IMG/VR virus record: IMGVR_UViG_2681813234_000008 | Location: 1 to 13,625 of that record | Strand: one strand, 5' to 3' | From: a virus | Lineage: Duplodnaviria > Heunggongvirae > Uroviricota > Caudoviricetes | DNA: 13,625 bases | Part shown: positions 3,682 through 7,279 of the stretch, piece by piece | Position numbering within the stretch: position 1 is the stretch's first letter | Layout of the letters: each line of letters starts with the position of its first letter | Notes under the pieces: generated by a model | The model's database searches: none | What the model saw: the letters and a program-made list of their open reading frames with translations, nothing else | What the model was told of the DNA's origin: nothing | Translations under genes and position numbers: made by a program

Positions 3682-4263
3682 TTAATGTGTCACTGGCGCT
3701 TCTGACATACCATGAGTATTCAGGTCGTTAATCATTTCATCCAGAAGGAGTTCAAGCCCTTCGCGCCCCATAGCAGAGAGAATGAAACCATTATCAGGAT
3801 CTGCGATGAGCATTTTTTGATAGAGAAACAGAACTCGCCCGATGCCTTCAGTTTCGCCATATTTTTCAATAAATCCCCATTCGACATGGTTTTGCAGGGC
3901 AATGCGAAGTGGTCCTGGGTATATACTTATGCAACCATGTTTCCCCTTGTAAATAACTGCGCGATCTGTCGTCCCGTTATCGTTAGGGATATCAATAGTG
4001 CCGTTCTTGTCTTCCTCTTCACTGATAAACTTCATCACATACAGCCAGCGCCACTGAGCAACCTTCAGATCGACTGAAAATCTTCCCAGCAATCCGGCAT
4101 CATCAGCTTCGGCAAGACATTGCATGATTCTTAAACCGTGCCAGTATGGATTATCGAATTCGCCATCATTAAGCCGCTGTACGGCCTCAATATAATCAAT
4201 GGTTTTATTACCAATTTTTATGCCATGTGGCGTTACTTCTGGTCGGAACTCTGAATGATTCAT
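3682..4263 (-). CDS. Hypothetical protein (193 aa), distal gene of a coupled pair
   Basis: Track ORF 3682..4338, trimmed to the ATG at 4263 (MNHSEFRPEV...), which overlaps the upstream gene stop as ATGA. Very AT-rich; no recognisable domain. Confidence 0.6.
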   Translation of the reverse strand: MNHSEFRPEVTPHGIKIGNKTIDYIEAVQRLNDGEFDNPYWHGLRIMQCLAEADDAGLLGRFSVDLKVAQWRWLYVMKFISEEEDKNGTIDIPNDNGTTDRAVIYKGKHGCISIYPGPLRIALQNHVEWGFIEKYGETEGIGRVLFLYQKMLIADPDNGFILSAMGREGLELLLDEMINDLNTHGMSEAPVTH

Positions 4264-4644: not shown

Positions 4645-5010
4645 TTATTGCGCTAATTCTTTTTCGGCAGCAGATTTTGCATATTCACATGCAAAATTCA
4701 GAATTTCGCTGCCAAGTGTTTTTGTTTCGTGATTACTGGACATATGTAATACCTGTGTTGCATGCAATAAATGATAAACATTTACCGCAAATGAATCAGG
4801 CTCCAGACAAATGCCTTCATAATCATCTTGTTGTGAGGTTGTTTCTGTCATTGCTCCTGAAGTGCATGCGAGCCTGTTTTTGACAATTCTCTTTCCTCTA
4901 ATCACTATATCGGCAACATCTATTGCCTTTACAACCTCCGGGAGAAGGTCCGGGTTTGTATAATCAAAGTCATTAACATGGAGAACAGTTATGTTTTCGA
5001 ACTTTTTCAT
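4645..5010 (-). CDS. Hypothetical protein (121 aa)
   Basis: Track ORF with GAGGAA SD upstream of the ATG at 5010. It lies downstream of an HTH gene on the repressor strand. No recognisable domain. Confidence 0.55.
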   Translation of the reverse strand: MKKFENITVLHVNDFDYTNPDLLPEVVKAIDVADIVIRGKRIVKNRLACTSGAMTETTSQQDDYEGICLEPDSFAVNVYHLLHATQVLHMSSNHETKTLGSEILNFACEYAKSAAEKELAQ

Positions 5011-5138: not shown

Positions 5139-5657
5139 TCACCATTGGTATTGGTTCTTCCGTAGAAGAGCTTCGCGAGATAAGGAGCAAACTTGTTGAG
5201 ATGCGTCATGGTGTTGCTGCTCCTCACTTTTTGGTTGCTCCGGAGGAGTAACCTCACCAGTTAACAGCCACATCGGATCGCAGCCAAGAATATTTGCCAG
5301 TGGGATAAGCATACTGATAGTTGGTTCATACTTTCCGCTCTCCCACTGGATGATAATTTCTTCATCGAGATCGAGCAGCCTGGCGAGTTCGGCGGTTGTT
5401 AAGCCGCAAGCTTCGCGTTGAGTGCGAAGGCGGGAACTAATAGTCACCATAGCAAGGCGACGGCAAGATTTAGTGCGCTCTTGCCTTCTTTGTGAAAAAT
5501 CTTCTTGTGCAAGAGAAGATGCCAGTTCAGCTGAAATTAGAAGTAATGAATATGAAACATCTCGCTCTTTCTCGGTACCTGAAGACAACAAGCAGGCTGC
5601 GTTAAGGGATGCAGAAAGCTTGTTGATGTCATCTATAGCGTCAATAAAATCGATCAT
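5139..5657 (-). CDS. XRE-family helix-turn-helix protein (172 aa) with extra N-terminal region
   Basis: Central HTH_3-like segment (GLTTAELARLLDLDEEIIIQWESGKYEPTISMLIPLANILGCDPMWLLTGE). GGAG lies upstream of the ATG at 5657; the alternative start at M70 (5450) lacks an SD. Confidence 0.6.
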   Translation of the reverse strand: MIDFIDAIDDINKLSASLNAACLLSSGTEKERDVSYSLLLISAELASSLAQEDFSQRRQERTKSCRRLAMVTISSRLRTQREACGLTTAELARLLDLDEEIIIQWESGKYEPTISMLIPLANILGCDPMWLLTGEVTPPEQPKSEEQQHHDASQQVCSLSREALLRKNQYQW

Positions 5658-5697
5658 TTCTCAAAGCTCCAATAATGCGCTGTGAGGCAATGATTCA

Positions 5698-5728
5698 TCA
5701 ATTATAATTGATAGTCAAGTATGATTTA
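5698..5728. promoter_or_regulatory. Operator-like 14-bp perfect palindrome TCAATTATAATTGA (5698-5711) plus adjacent half-site TCAAGTA (5715-5721)
   Basis: Palindrome read directly from the sequence. It sits between the repressor stop and the start of the 172-aa HTH gene and matches the site family in the repressor/cro intergenic region. Confidence 0.45.
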
Positions 5729-6211
5729 GTCTTTTTGATTGAGTTTTTGCGTGATTAGCAAGATGTTTTTTGAGTGTTCTTCCAGAAGATTTTTTGCAAA
5801 ATCCAACACCTTTACCCTCTCTTTTGTGGGTAAATTCGCAAATATTTCAAATAAATAGCTTGTATCCTCAATGATTGTTGGATCTATAGATTCAATAATA
5901 CCTCGTATCAGTTTGTTGCTCATTGAATCAAAAAGAGTTTCTCCATTCTCCCGGGTAAGTGTGTACTTAGGTTTTTCTGTGTTTCCATTTAAAAGCCACT
6001 GTACGTCGCACTGTAAGAGTTCTGATAATTTCAATAGCTTATCGCTAGTTATGCTTGTCTTTCCTTTCTCCCACAAAGATACAGCAGCCATTGATACCCC
6101 CATTGCTTGTGCCAGCTTTAATTGACTTAAACCAAGTTCTTTTCTGCGTGACAGAATCCTGTGCCCCATTGAGAGTGGGGAAGACTGACATGACTTTAGT
6201 TTTGTATCCAT
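5726..6211 (-). CDS. Prophage repressor, XRE-family HTH, no recognisable S24 peptidase domain (CI analog)
   Basis: N-terminal HTH (LGLSQLKLAQAMGVSMAAVSLWEKGKTSITSDKLLKLSELLQCDVQWLLNG). Transcribed divergently from the Cro-like gene. Track ORF trimmed to the ATG at 6211, which has a GAGGG SD. The C-terminal 90 aa show no Ser/Lys autopeptidase motif. Confidence 0.7.
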   Translation of the reverse strand: MDTKLKSCQSSPLSMGHRILSRRKELGLSQLKLAQAMGVSMAAVSLWEKGKTSITSDKLLKLSELLQCDVQWLLNGNTEKPKYTLTRENGETLFDSMSNKLIRGIIESIDPTIIEDTSYLFEIFANLPTKERVKVLDFAKNLLEEHSKNILLITQKLNQKD

Positions 6212-6291
6212 ATTGCCCTCAAGTATACTTGATAGTAAGATTGTGTTGTAATTCCTGTTGCTAAGCTTAATCAATTAATGTTGAGGTCTCA
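6212..6291. promoter_or_regulatory. Divergent immunity promoter/operator region with two 14-bp sites, TCAAGTATACTTGA (6219-6232) and TCAATTAATGTTGA (6271-6284)
   Basis: The first site is a perfect palindrome and the second is a 12/14 match to the 5698 palindrome. Each abuts the SD of the gene on its side. -10-like hexamers (TATACT, TAAGAT) are present, but promoters are not mapped. Confidence 0.5.
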
Positions 6292-6531
6292 ATGATAAAG
6301 ATTAGTGCAATTAAGTTTTATGGTTCGCAAAGGGCGATTGCTCAATCACTGGGGATTAGCGAGCAAGCTGTTTCTCAATGGCCAGAACTCATTCCTAAAG
6401 GTGCAGCTCTGGAGCTTGAGAAACTCACTGATGGCGCTTTGAAGTGCGATCTGAACCTGTACAAGAACCGCTCGCGCAAAAACAAGCGTGAATTGCACCC
6501 AAGCTTAGCGCACACGGGGGAGGAGAAGTGA
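6292..6531 (+). CDS. Cro/YdaS-like small DNA-binding regulator
   Basis: 79-aa ORF with the YdaS/Cro-type motif GSQRAIAQSLGISEQAVSQW ... PKGAALELEKLTDGALKCD. Divergent from the repressor; GAGG SD. Confidence 0.7.
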   Translation: MIKISAIKFYGSQRAIAQSLGISEQAVSQWPELIPKGAALELEKLTDGALKCDLNLYKNRSRKNKRELHPSLAHTGEEK

Positions 6532-6851: not shown

Positions 6852-6935
6852 TTGTTTCGGGTTTGAAGGTACCCGAACAGAAGCAGGCTTAAAGGTGCCT
6901 GTTCAGGTTGGCAACCAACTGACCCAATTCCTCAT

Positions 6936-6960
6936 GCGTACTAGGTAAGTAGTACGTTTT
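6936..6960 (+). terminator. Weak intrinsic-terminator-like hairpin
   Basis: Stem CGTACTA / TAGTACG with loop GGTAAG, followed by TTTT. AT-rich stem, so stability is modest. Lies about 85 nt after the 106-aa gene. Confidence 0.3.
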
Positions 6961-6963
6961 TAT

Positions 6964-7017
6964 GGGGAAGAGGGAAAGGGGGGAGGGGGGGGATTGGGTG
7001 CAGGGGTAGGAATAGGG
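6964..7017. repeat. G-rich polypurine tract with runs G4, G3, G6, G8, G3, G4, G3
   Basis: Read directly: GGGGAAGAGGGAAAGGGGGGAGGGGGGGGATTGGGTGCAGGGGTAGGAATAGGG. The first 30 nt are pure purine. It sits inside a 428-bp intergenic region. Confidence 0.9.
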
Positions 7018-7279
7018 ACTTTTCCAACAGGAGAGAGCCATTGGTTAAGTAGATCACTGTCTTAAGGGCGCAATTTAAAAAAACGCCTGTATCAGCAAGA
7101 TAGTACAAGGCGCTCAGGCGCTGAGAAACGAAAAAGGGTTCTTCCTGGAAGAGTGTTTTTCAGGGGAACTGAATCTGAAGGGAGGCTGGCAGCCTTTGGG
7201 GAGGCCACCAGCCATGTGAGGGGGAATCCATGAAAACCACATCACAAAATTATTATCTCATCAGCACTGGAGCAAAACA

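What the first reader, a model, noticed from the sequence alone, without database searches (positions are those of the whole stretch)
5698..6284. Family of 14-bp TCAA-N6-TTGA palindromes marks the immunity switch and a second promoter
Two perfect palindromes (TCAAGTATACTTGA at 6219-6232 and TCAATTATAATTGA at 5698-5711) and one 12/14 variant (TCAATTAATGTTGA at 6271-6284) share the same architecture and differ at symmetric positions. One abuts the repressor SD, one the cro SD, and one precedes the 172-aa HTH gene. This suggests a single repressor regulon that also controls the rex-position genes, or cross-talk between the two HTH proteins.
Basis: seen in the sequence. Interest (0 to 1): 0.5.

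Follow-up and report, generated by a model that had tools for sequence, protein, structure and literature searches.

The report
Prophage repressor operator sites, OL and OR
The three 14-bp palindromes are very probably the DNA sites through which a phiP27-like E. coli prophage's repressor and Cro proteins control its early promoters: an ordinary lambda/P22-style immunity switch whose recognition sequence has not, as far as I could find, been described.

Summary
TCAA-N6-TTGA occurs exactly three times in the 13.6-kb window (0.45 expected), at the stated coordinates. All three lie in the two short intergenic regions flanking a 161-aa HTH repressor gene. One detail is wrong: the third site has 4 of 7 symmetric pairs (8/14), not 12/14.

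The sites are best read as lambdoid operators. Two lie in the repressor/cro intergenic region (OR). One, plus a degenerate neighbour at 5715-5728, lies at the leftward early promoter just past the repressor's stop codon (OL/PL).

- Heteroimmune phiP27-like relatives each carry their own operator motif in both intergenic regions.
- More distant relatives, with repressors 34-46% identical, keep a TCAA-N6-TTGA site in the same slot: -35, 1 nt, site, 2 nt, -10.
- The repressor's DNA-binding domain resembles P22 C2, and the sites have P22 geometry (TCAAG-N4-CTTGA against TTAAG-N4-CTTAA).

The 172-aa HTH gene is therefore the first gene of the leftward early operon, not a rex-like gene. Its HTH is invariant across immunity types with unrelated operators, which argues against cross-talk.

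This is a new specificity of a well-known kind of switch, and of low interest. No binding was tested.

The parts
5698..5711 (.). OL1: perfect palindrome TCAATTATAATTGA (16-bp perfect with flanks, 5697-5712), lying in the 17-bp spacer of the leftward promoter-like pair
   Evidence: A TCAA-N6-TTGA site occupies the same slot (-35, 1 nt, site, 2 nt, -10) in L001, L031, L033 and L032.
5715..5728 (.). OL2 candidate: TCAAGTATGATTTA. One arm mismatch; overlaps the -35 of PL and the repressor stop codon
   Evidence: It shares the 8-mer TCAAGTAT with the 6219 site. A 12/14-identical copy, TCAAGCATAATTTA, abuts the strong left site in L030. It is only 17 bp centre-to-centre from OL1, so its function is uncertain.
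5690..5718 (-). PL candidate: TTGACT (5718-5713), 17 bp, AATCAT (5695-5690), reading into the 172-aa gene
   Evidence: Found by the consensus scan (9/12 matches) and by my own scan. The architecture is conserved in diverged relatives.
6219..6232 (.). OR site a: perfect palindrome TCAAGTATACTTGA, overlapping the repressor's Shine-Dalgarno sequence. It lies in the spacer of a rightward promoter-like pair
   Evidence: It is identical in all 17 same-immunity loci checked. L030 has TCAATTATAATTGA at the same place.
6271..6284 (.). OR site b: TCAATTAATGTTGA. Only the arms are symmetric. It overlaps the cro Shine-Dalgarno sequence and lies in the spacer of a leftward promoter-like pair
   Evidence: The allelic form TCAATTAATATTGA in L012 and L023-L026 keeps both arms.
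6213..6241 (+). PR candidate (low confidence): TTGCCC, 17 bp, TAAGAT
   Evidence: 8/12 matches, below the threshold of the scan. L031 and L033 have TTGGCA, 17 bp, TAAACT at the equivalent place next to the repressor start.
6264..6292 (-). PRM candidate (low confidence): TTGAGA (6292-6287), 17 bp, TAAGCT (6269-6264)
   Evidence: The same -35 position over the cro start, with a 17-bp spacer, appears in L030 (TTGAGA/TAAACT) and L032 (TTGAGG/TAAAAT).
5726..6211 (-). Repressor gene: 161 aa, N-terminal HTH_3 domain, no S24 peptidase domain
   Evidence: Pfam. The N-terminal domain matches the P22 C2 N-terminal domain at E 3e-11 and the 434 repressor at 5.5e-7. The best NCBIfam hit is DicA at 68.6 bits, below the 101 cutoff.
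6292..6531 (+). cro-like gene: 79 aa, P22_Cro family
   Evidence: Pfam P22_Cro, E 1.3e-16. NCBIfam DicC scores 51 bits, below the 130 cutoff. The recognition helix S(E/D)QAVSQW is shared with L030 and L031 and varies by one or two residues in L033 and L032; all four carry TCAA half-sites.
5139..5657 (-). 172-aa HTH gene (homologue of phiP27 L10): first gene downstream of PL. It is a target of the switch, not a binder of these sites
   Evidence: Its HTH and C-terminus are conserved across immunity types, while its N-terminal ~75 aa swaps with the immunity module.

Best explanation
**What it is.** The palindromes are the operators of a lambdoid (phiP27-like) prophage immunity region.

**The binders (inferred).** The 161-aa repressor has a P22-C2-like HTH domain and a non-peptidase C-terminal domain. 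It is inferred to bind as a dimer to (A)TCAAK-N4-MTTGA(T) sites. The P22_Cro-family Cro is inferred to bind the same sites.

**The left side (best supported).** OL1 at 5698-5711 fills the 17-bp spacer of the leftward early promoter (TTGACT/AATCAT). The degenerate OL2 covers its -35. Bound repressor should therefore exclude RNA polymerase and silence the leftward early operon, which starts with the 172-aa L10-like HTH gene and runs to xis/int.

**The right side (less certain).** The two OR sites, 52 bp apart, overlap the core or initial transcribed regions of the divergent cro and repressor promoters.
- The most consistent reading puts each site in the spacer of one promoter.
- The perfect site at 6219-6232 would control the rightward cro promoter.
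- The imperfect site at 6271-6284 would control the leftward repressor promoter. It would act as a low-affinity autoregulatory or Cro-preferred site, like lambda OR3.

**Induction (inferred).** The repressor has no S24 cleavage domain, so induction presumably needs an antirepressor, as for DicA and the Gifsy repressors.

**Shown versus inferred.** Shown here: site positions, enrichment, conservation, and co-variation with the immunity module. Inferred: who binds, the promoter assignments in OR, and the induction route.
For: 1. **Enrichment and position.** There are exactly 3 copies, all in the 148 bp flanking the repressor gene. No other copy occurs in 50 kb around a same-immunity prophage.

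2. **Gene context.** A repressor with HTH_3 is divergent from a P22_Cro-family gene, inside a phiP27-like left arm (int, SPFH) and replication module (DEAD helicase, primase).

3. **Co-variation across immunity types.** In six heteroimmune relatives, the left intergenic region shares sequence words with its own right intergenic region far more than with those of other types.
   - For 8-mers, the cognate sum is 23, against a non-cognate mean of 3.6 and maximum of 10.
   - The true pairing is the best of 720 permutations.
   - Examples: phiP27-type GATAC-N4-GTATC-like sites in both regions, and GAAATCTAGGTT shared in L004.

4. **Conservation at distance.** Cro relatives from other enterobacteria have repressors 34-46% identical to this one. 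L031 and L033 have the identical recognition helix GVSMAAVSLWE. These relatives keep TCAA-N6-TTGA sites.
   - At the left promoter the layout is TTGAYT, 1 nt, TCAA-N6-TTGA, 2 nt, -10, with unrelated flanks and variable centres.
   - Half-site density is about 10-fold higher in the intergenic regions than elsewhere in the window, L030, L031 and L033, and about 5-fold in L032.
   - It is only about 2-fold in control loci L034 and L035, which have other repressors and other motifs.

5. **Protein fit.** The repressor N-terminal domain aligns without gaps to P22 C2.
   - P22 operators are TTAAG half-sites around a 4-bp non-contacted centre (PMC5175364; PMC4267663). That is the same 5-4-5 geometry, with one base changed.
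   - The P22 contact residues V33 and Q37 are replaced here by A42 and L46 (alignment).

6. **Promoter context.** All three exact sites lie wholly inside the 17-bp spacer of a promoter-like hexamer pair. The background is 1.8% of window positions, and the joint flank-shuffle probability is about 5e-4.
Against: - There are no binding or transcript data of any kind.
- OR shows two clear sites, not the three typical of lambda, P22 and phiP27. The candidate middle site at 6236-6249 matches only 5 of 8 arm positions.
- The OR promoter candidates are weak (8/12) and were not reported by the stricter scan. Other assignments exist, for example TATACT inside the 6219 palindrome as a -10.
- The score threshold in the spacer test was chosen after seeing the data.
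- Same-immunity relatives are too close (97-100% identical) to show purifying selection on the sites. Their few differences include two in the site centres.
- No terminator was found between the repressor gene and the 172-aa gene in this allele. Read-through from the repressor promoter could therefore express that gene in lysogens.
- OL1 and OL2 are only 17 bp apart centre-to-centre, which is awkward for two dimers.
Confidence: 0.8

Rival explanations
1. The 172-aa L10-like HTH protein binds some or all of the palindromes. This would be autoregulation at 5698-5711, or cross-talk with the repressor at OR.
For: It has a bona fide HTH_3 domain. One palindrome sits in its own promoter region. Its N-terminal ~75 aa co-segregates with the immunity module.
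Against: Its HTH domain (RTQREACGLTTAELARLLDLDEEIIIQWESG...) is nearly invariant in loci whose operators are unrelated: TCAA-N6-TTGA, GATAC-N4-GTATC, TCGAAA-type and CTAT-N11-ATAG-type. L031 and L033 share the repressor helix and the operators but differ in this protein's recognition helix. No motif common to all left intergenic regions was seen.
Confidence: 0.05
2. The left site is mainly a distal partner for long-range repressor looping with OR (as lambda OL-OR), or an autoregulatory element for a repressor/172-aa co-transcript. In that case the 172-aa gene would be a lysogen-expressed, rex-like passenger rather than a repressed early gene.
For: No terminator separates the repressor gene from the 172-aa gene in this allele, and the gap is only 68 bp. 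The OL and OR sites are about 520-570 bp apart, a loopable distance.
Against: The site lies exactly in the spacer of the best promoter-like match of the region, and that layout is conserved in diverged relatives. In immunity types B and F, terminator-like GC-rich hairpins with T-runs (read by eye, not confirmed with a tool) follow the repressor gene, so the second gene would need its own promoter. All genes from here to int form one leftward string, as in a PL operon. Looping and promoter repression are not mutually exclusive.
Confidence: 0.1
3. The palindromes are by-products of AT-rich promoter DNA. TTGA is the start of the -35 consensus, and TATAAT/TATACT sits in two of the centres. On this reading they are not protein-specific operators.
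For: TTGA equals the first four bases of TTGACA. The centres of two sites read TATAAT and TATACT. L004, which has a different repressor, has one TCAAGTGTAATTGA at its left promoter's -35.
Against: There are three exact copies against 0.45 expected. There is none in the other promoters of the window or in 50 kb of L036. Enrichment of half-sites is 10-fold in loci with related recognition helices, but only about 2-fold in control loci L034 and L035 with other repressors. The arms are conserved with variable centres across diverged relatives.
Confidence: 0.04
4. The palindromes act as RNA hairpins (terminator, attenuator or ribosome-binding-site occlusion) in the repressor, cro or L10-like transcripts.
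For: Two sites overlap Shine-Dalgarno sequences. Perfect palindromes can fold.
Against: The predicted hairpins are weak: -4.3, -4.3 and -2.8 kcal/mol, with z-scores of -1.1, -1.6 and -0.6 against shuffles. They have no T-run, and no terminator-like site was reported there. The third site has no stem beyond 4 pairs.
Confidence: 0.01

Closest known systems
Phage P22 immC: C2 repressor and Cro with OL/OR operators
   Same: - The repressor N-terminal domain is the best solved-structure match (E 3e-11, gap-free), and Cro belongs to Pfam P22_Cro.
- The operator geometry is the same: 5-bp half-sites around a 4-bp AT-rich centre, TCAAG-TATA-CTTGA against TTAAG-ATAT-CTTAA.
- Operators sit on both sides of the repressor gene.
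   Different: - The half-site differs at one base (TCAAG, not TTAAG), and contact residues V33 and Q37 are A42 and L46 here.
- There is no S24 peptidase domain.
- There are two clear OR sites 52 bp apart rather than three adjacent ones.
- P22 operators are described as 18 bp. Here symmetry extends to 16 bp at most.
Lambda OL/OR immunity switch
   Same: It has a divergent repressor/cro pair, the same operator family at the rightward and leftward early promoters, and operators that change with immunity type.
   Different: - The operators are 14-16 bp rather than 17 bp.
- No rex genes lie between the repressor gene and the left operators.
- No tripartite OR is evident.
- The OR promoters may be arranged crossing rather than back-to-back (inference).
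DicA/DicC of the Qin prophage, and the Gifsy repressors (short, non-cleavable, antirepressor-controlled)
   Same: - The repressor is a short HTH protein without an Ala-Gly/S24 cleavage module.
- The best NCBIfam hits are DicA and DicC, and tblastn finds dicA-annotated genes at about 32% identity.
- These systems are described as CI/Cro-like bistable switches relieved by antirepressors (PMC10448788).
   Different: - Scores are below NCBIfam's cutoffs: 68.6 against 101, and 51 against 130.
- DicA's Oc operator is a 20-nt inverted repeat, TTGTTAGTCATAACTAACAA (PMC3441716), unrelated to TCAA-N6-TTGA.
- No antirepressor or LexA box was identified in the window.
Phage 434 operators (14 bp, ACAA-N6-TTGT; own knowledge)
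   Same: The operators have the same length and layout: 4-bp conserved arms and a variable 6-bp centre. The 434 repressor is the second-best structural relative of the N-terminal domain (E 5.5e-7).
   Different: The outermost base differs (T...A instead of A...T). The repressor is closer to P22 C2. The 434 operator sequence is recalled from memory, not checked here.
Phage phiP27 (Stx2e phage) immunity region L10-L11-L12
   Same: The gene order and flanking modules are the same, and the 172-aa gene is an L10 homologue. The left intergenic region also repeats the right region's operators.
   Different: phiP27's L11 is a 218-aa protein, 1 residue different from a RefSeq 'LexA family protein'. It has six GATAC-N4-GTATC-like sites (3 + 3). 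The window has a different immunity module: repressor, Cro HTH, L10 N-terminus and operators.

Membership tests
Lambdoid immunity-region operators (OL/OR) | Divergent repressor and cro genes separated by a short region carrying repeated (pseudo)palindromic sites | tested here: met
   The repressor is at 5726-6211 (-) and cro at 6292-6531 (+). The 80-bp gap holds two TCAA-N6-TTGA sites.
Lambdoid immunity-region operators (OL/OR) | A second set of the same sites at the leftward early promoter, beyond the 3' end of the repressor gene | tested here: met
   Sites lie at 5698-5711 (plus 5715-5728), inside or over a promoter-like pair reading leftward. The same layout appears in diverged relatives.
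Lambdoid immunity-region operators (OL/OR) | Operator sequence changes together with the repressor/cro module in heteroimmune relatives | tested here: met
   Cognate left and right regions share words, and the true pairing is the best of 720 permutations. Control loci with other repressors lack the motif.
Lambdoid immunity-region operators (OL/OR) | Sites overlap the core elements of PR and PRM | tested here: inconclusive
   Only weak promoter-like matches were found (8/12), and none passed the stricter scan. Every candidate assignment overlaps a site, but the real transcription starts are unknown.
Lambdoid immunity-region operators (OL/OR) | Three adjacent operators per side, with cooperative binding | tested here: not met
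   OR has two clear sites 52 bp apart, and the best middle candidate matches 5 of 8 arm positions. OL has one perfect site plus one degenerate site.
Lambdoid immunity-region operators (OL/OR) | Physical binding by repressor and Cro | not testable with these tools
   This needs EMSA, footprinting or ChIP.
P22 C2-type repressor/operator pair | Homologous N-terminal HTH domain | tested here: met
   1adr and 2r1j match at E 3e-11 to 7e-11, covering residues 15-79 without gaps.
P22 C2-type repressor/operator pair | Operator consensus ATTTAAGATATCTTAAAT (TTAAG half-sites) | tested here: not met
   The geometry is the same, but the half-site is TCAAG/TCAAT. The specificity is therefore different.
P22 C2-type repressor/operator pair | C-terminal S24/LexA-like self-cleaving domain | tested here: not met
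   There is no Peptidase_S24 hit, and the protein is 161 aa.
DicA/DicC-type (short non-cleavable repressor plus P22_Cro-type partner) | Protein reaches the NCBIfam DicA or DicC curated cutoff | tested here: not met
   DicA scores 68.6 against 101, and DicC 51.1 against 130.
DicA/DicC-type (short non-cleavable repressor plus P22_Cro-type partner) | Short HTH repressor lacking a cleavage module, divergent from a P22_Cro-family gene | tested here: met
DicA/DicC-type (short non-cleavable repressor plus P22_Cro-type partner) | Relief of repression by a dedicated antirepressor | not tested
   No candidate was identified in the window, and there is no exact LexA-box match; the one-mismatch matches are at chance level. 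Relatives carry Rha/Ash/Ant-type genes right of cro.

The most novel reading that the evidence does not exclude
The switch may be a minimal one-operator-per-promoter design. Each of the three early promoters (PL, PR, PRM) would carry a single dimer site filling its 17-bp spacer. PR and PRM would cross each other, with -35 boxes next to the opposite gene's start codon and start sites about 10 bp apart and convergent. RNA-polymerase occupancy would then be mutually exclusive. The decision would rest on a perfect site (lytic promoters) against an imperfect site (repressor promoter), rather than on lambda-style cooperative tripartite operators. A related open possibility is that the immunity-specific N-terminal domain of the L10-like protein contacts its cognate repressor.
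Probability: 0.2. Interest if true: 0.4.

Novelty: new member of a known kind. Interest (0 to 1): 0.2.

Why it matters
The finding gives a specific, testable operator consensus, (A)TCAAK-N4-MTTGA(T), for an immunity type of phiP27-like E. coli prophages. The exact repressor is on record in 96 blocks of the public assembly collection. It helps annotation by showing that the gene downstream of the repressor is a repressed early gene, not a lysogenic-conversion (rex-like) gene. It adds a natural one-base specificity variant (TCAAG against TTAAG, with V33A and Q37L) to the well-studied P22 C2 recognition problem. It does not change how such switches are understood.

Tried and rejected
- **Same-immunity relatives as a conservation test.** The 17 loci (L001, L012-L027) are 97-100% identical. 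The arms are unchanged, but with about 8 substitutions in 148 bp this is not significant.
- **Repressor relatives.**
  - Only 4 protein clusters were found at E<=1e-10.
  - There was nothing in the species-representative genomes.
  - IMG/VR gave 1 identical and 2 remote hits.
  - Switching to the Cro N-terminal half as query is what produced useful diverged relatives.
- **Naive IG1-versus-IG2 comparison.** The longest-common-substring and best-14-mer matrices were noisy because of AT-richness. I replaced them with canonical k-mer sharing and a permutation test.
- **A third OR operator.** None is convincing; the best candidate is 6236-6249, with 5 of 8 arm positions.
- **LexA box or antirepressor in the window.** There is no exact match, and one-mismatch matches are at chance level.
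- **RNA-structure reading.** The hairpins are weak.
- **The phiP27 genome paper** (PubMed 11895953) is not held. A full-text search surfaced no paper on phiP27 operators; the six hits that mention phiP27 were not opened.
- **N-terminal truncation of the L10-like gene.** I checked whether the gene is truncated in some lysogens. It is not; the difference is only in gene-caller start choice.
Full report
**1. The observation**

The three sequences are at the stated coordinates.
- TCAA-N6-TTGA occurs exactly three times in 13,625 bp, against 0.45 expected. Only 2 of 200 dinucleotide shuffles reach three.
- The position is more telling than the count. All three lie in the 68-bp and 80-bp gaps on either side of one gene, which together make up 1.1% of the window.
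- The first two are perfect 14-bp palindromes. The window holds only one other perfect 14-bp palindrome.
- The third site was described as a '12/14 variant', which is wrong. Only its four outer pairs are symmetric (8/14), and it is 11/14 and 10/14 identical to the other two.
- Allowing one mismatch gives no general enrichment (8 found, 10 expected). It does reveal TCAAGTATGATTTA at 5715-5728, 3 bp from the first site.

**2. Context**

| Gene (window coordinates) | Product | Evidence |
|---|---|---|
| 5726-6211 (-) | 161-aa protein, N-terminal HTH_3 domain, no S24 peptidase domain | |
| 6292-6531 (+) | 79-aa member of Pfam P22_Cro, divergent from the repressor gene | |
| 5139-5657 (-) | 172-aa protein with a central HTH_3 domain, downstream of the repressor gene | |

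- The rest of the window carries an integrase, an SPFH protein, a DEAD-box helicase and a primase.
- DNA comparison shows a mosaic E. coli prophage of the phiP27 type. The 172-aa gene is the homologue of phiP27 L10, and the repressor and cro occupy the L11 and L12 positions.
- The exact repressor protein is on record in 96 blocks of the public assembly collection.

**3. The left site is OL/PL, not a rex-position promoter**

I compared the window with E. coli prophages and phages that share the flanking DNA but carry other repressors.

- **The module borders.** The conserved DNA ends inside the 172-aa gene and inside cro. The L10-like protein keeps its HTH and C-terminus, and Cro keeps its C-terminal half. 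The L10 N-terminal ~75 aa, the repressor, both intergenic regions and the Cro HTH are exchanged as one block.
- **Each type repeats its own motif.** In each immunity type the left intergenic region repeats that type's own right-region motif.
  - phiP27 and its close relatives have GATAC-N4-GTATC-like 14-mers, three on each side.
  - L004 has TCGAAATCTAGGTT-type sites.
  - L007 and L011 have CTAT-N11-ATAG-type sites.
- **Permutation test.** Over six types, cognate left and right regions share 23 canonical 8-mers. Non-cognate pairings share a mean of 3.6 and a maximum of 10. The true pairing is the best of 720 permutations.
- **Terminators.** In types B and F, terminator-like GC-rich hairpins with T-runs follow the repressor gene, so the next gene would need its own promoter. 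I read these by eye from the sequences and did not confirm them with a tool.
- **Gene order.** All genes from the L10-like gene to xis/int point leftward.

This is the standard lambdoid arrangement of a leftward early promoter with its operators just beyond the repressor gene.

**4. Conservation**

- **Close relatives are uninformative.** Seventeen loci with the same immunity keep all three sites. The only changes are at central positions 5 or 10: TCAACTATAATTGA and TCAATTAATATTGA. These loci are 97-100% identical overall, so this says little.
- **More distant relatives.** The repressor itself has almost none detectable. Searching with the N-terminal half of Cro gave homologues 53-77% identical, some named by their sources as Kluyvera, Citrobacter, Salmonella and Hafnia.
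- **Their partner repressors.** In the four loci with the closest Cro (69-77% identical) the partner repressors are 34-46% identical to this one. L031 and L033 have the identical recognition helix GVSMAAVSLWE.
- **Their sites.** These loci carry TCAAGATATCTTGA, TCAAGATAACTTGA, TCAATTATAATTGA, TCAATTATTGTTGA and TCAAACTAAATTGA in the homologous intergenic regions.
- **The left promoter.** The alignment shows one architecture amid unrelated flanks: TTGAYT, 1 nt, TCAA-N6-TTGA, 2 nt, then a -10-like hexamer.
- **Half-site density.** TCAAK/MTTGA half-sites occur at 4.0-4.8 per 100 bp in the intergenic regions of the window, L030, L031 and L033 (2.6 in L032). Elsewhere the density is about 0.5. The Salmonella and Hafnia control loci L034 and L035, which have S24-type repressors and an ATAGAAAACTATC-type motif on both sides, show only 1.2-1.3.
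- **Regulon size.** In 50 kb around a same-immunity prophage remnant, the exact motif occurs only at the three homologous sites. The regulon is therefore the immunity region itself.

**5. Which protein binds**

- **The repressor.** Its N-terminal domain aligns without gaps to the P22 C2 N-terminal domain (E 3e-11), and next best to the 434 repressor.
- **P22 geometry.** P22 operators have the consensus ATTTAAGATATCTTAAAT. TTAAG half-sites are contacted by V33 and Q37, around a non-contacted 4-bp centre (PMC5175364; PMC4267663). The window's sites have the same 5-4-5 geometry with one base changed, TCAAG-TATA-CTTGA. The aligned residues are A42 and L46. That fits a related but distinct specificity. 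This step is inference.
- **Cro.** Cro's helix, S(E/D)QAVSQW, is shared with L030 and L031, varies by one or two residues in L033 and L032, and differs in type B.
- **The 172-aa protein.** It is an unlikely binder. Its HTH is essentially invariant across immunity types with unrelated operators. L031 and L033, which share operators, differ in that protein's helix.

**6. Promoters**

- **PL.** The consensus scan reports TTGACT, 17 bp, AATCAT on the minus strand (5718-5690), with the palindrome filling the spacer.
- **OR.** In the repressor/cro gap only weak candidates exist.
  - Rightward: TTGCCC, 17 bp, TAAGAT (6213-6241), with the 6219 site in its spacer.
  - Leftward: TTGAGA, 17 bp, TAAGCT (6292-6264), with the 6271 site in its spacer.
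  - Relatives show hexamer pairs at the equivalent places.
- **Spacer test.** All three exact sites are spacer-embedded. The background is 1.8% of window positions and the joint flank-shuffle probability is about 5e-4. The threshold was set after seeing the data.
- **What this would imply.** If these assignments are right, PR and PRM cross each other with start sites about 10 bp apart. That would be closer to the face-to-face promoters of phages 186 and P2 (own knowledge) than to lambda's back-to-back pair. I hold this with low confidence, because other assignments are possible.
- **RNA alternatives.** RNA-hairpin and terminator readings are weak, at -2.8 to -4.3 kcal/mol with no T-run.

**7. 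Comparison with known systems**

- The system works like a lambdoid OL/OR switch.
- By sequence, the repressor and Cro are nearest to P22 C2 and P22_Cro, and to DicA and DicC. They fall below NCBIfam's DicA and DicC cutoffs, and the sites are unlike DicA's Oc operator TTGTTAGTCATAACTAACAA (PMC3441716).
- Like DicA and the Gifsy repressors, the protein lacks a cleavage module. Those repressors are relieved by antirepressors (PMC10448788). No antirepressor or LexA box was identified in the window.

**8. Verdict**

That promoter is the ordinary PL/OL, and the cross-talk idea is not supported.
- This is a new specificity within a very well-known kind of system, and interest is low.
- Nothing here demonstrates binding. 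The operator assignment rests on position, enrichment, conservation and co-variation.

Noticed in passing
window ~5434 (inside the 172-aa gene) and ~6400 (inside cro): The immunity-module borders fall inside coding sequences, at domain borders. The L10-like protein's N-terminal ~75 aa and Cro's N-terminal HTH swap with the repressor. The L10 HTH and C-terminus, and Cro's C-terminal half (ALELEKLTDGALKCDL...), stay conserved across six immunity types. Whether the L10 N-terminal domain works with its cognate repressor or is merely linked to it is open.
   Followed up: partly
L030-L033, locus 2010-2023 (codons 4-8 of cro); window 6301-6314: Four diverged relatives carry a further TCAA-N6-TTGA inside the first codons of cro. 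L032 keeps it with different codons (TCAAGTGCCATTGA against TCAAGTGTAGTTGA). The window has only ATTAGTGCAATTAA at that place.
   Followed up: no
L010 (phiP27) 4006-4108 and 4766-4876; also L005, L006, L008: phiP27 and its close relatives show six GATAC-N4-GTATC-like 14-mers: three between L11 and L12, and three between L10 and L11. These look like a complete tripartite OR and OL for that phage. I found no description of them in the searchable literature.
   Followed up: partly
L009 (phage PhiR49_2) 3689-3833 and 4524-4656: This phage's intergenic regions are rich in ATCAAG half-sites like the window's, including TCAAGTTATAATTGA. Its cI, however, is a 229-aa repressor only 37% identical in the HTH region. 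The half-site preference may be partly shared.
   Followed up: no
window 6852-7279, especially ~6964-7010: A 430-bp non-coding gap lies between the ORF after cro and the helicase gene. It contains a long G-rich run (GGGGAAGAGGGAAAGGGGGGAGGGGGGGGATTGGGTGCAGGGGTAGG).
   Followed up: no
window 5727-5743 and 6288-6304: A 17-nt imperfect inverted repeat (82% complementary) joins the 3' end of the repressor gene and the start of cro, just outside the operator sites on each side. It may be chance.
   Followed up: no
window 5450 versus 5657 (start of the 172-aa gene); L013, L015, L018, L021, L022: Some assemblies' gene calls start this gene at Met70 (103 aa), although the DNA is identical. The long ORF stays open in all immunity types, and a GGAG precedes the ATG at 5657, so the 172-aa form is more likely.
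   Followed up: yes
L002 686-904 and L006 142-360: Some relatives carry a ParE-family toxin-like gene in the leftward early region. This recalls the prophage paaR2-paaA2-parE2 system described in PMC8630535. The window has no such gene.
   Followed up: no
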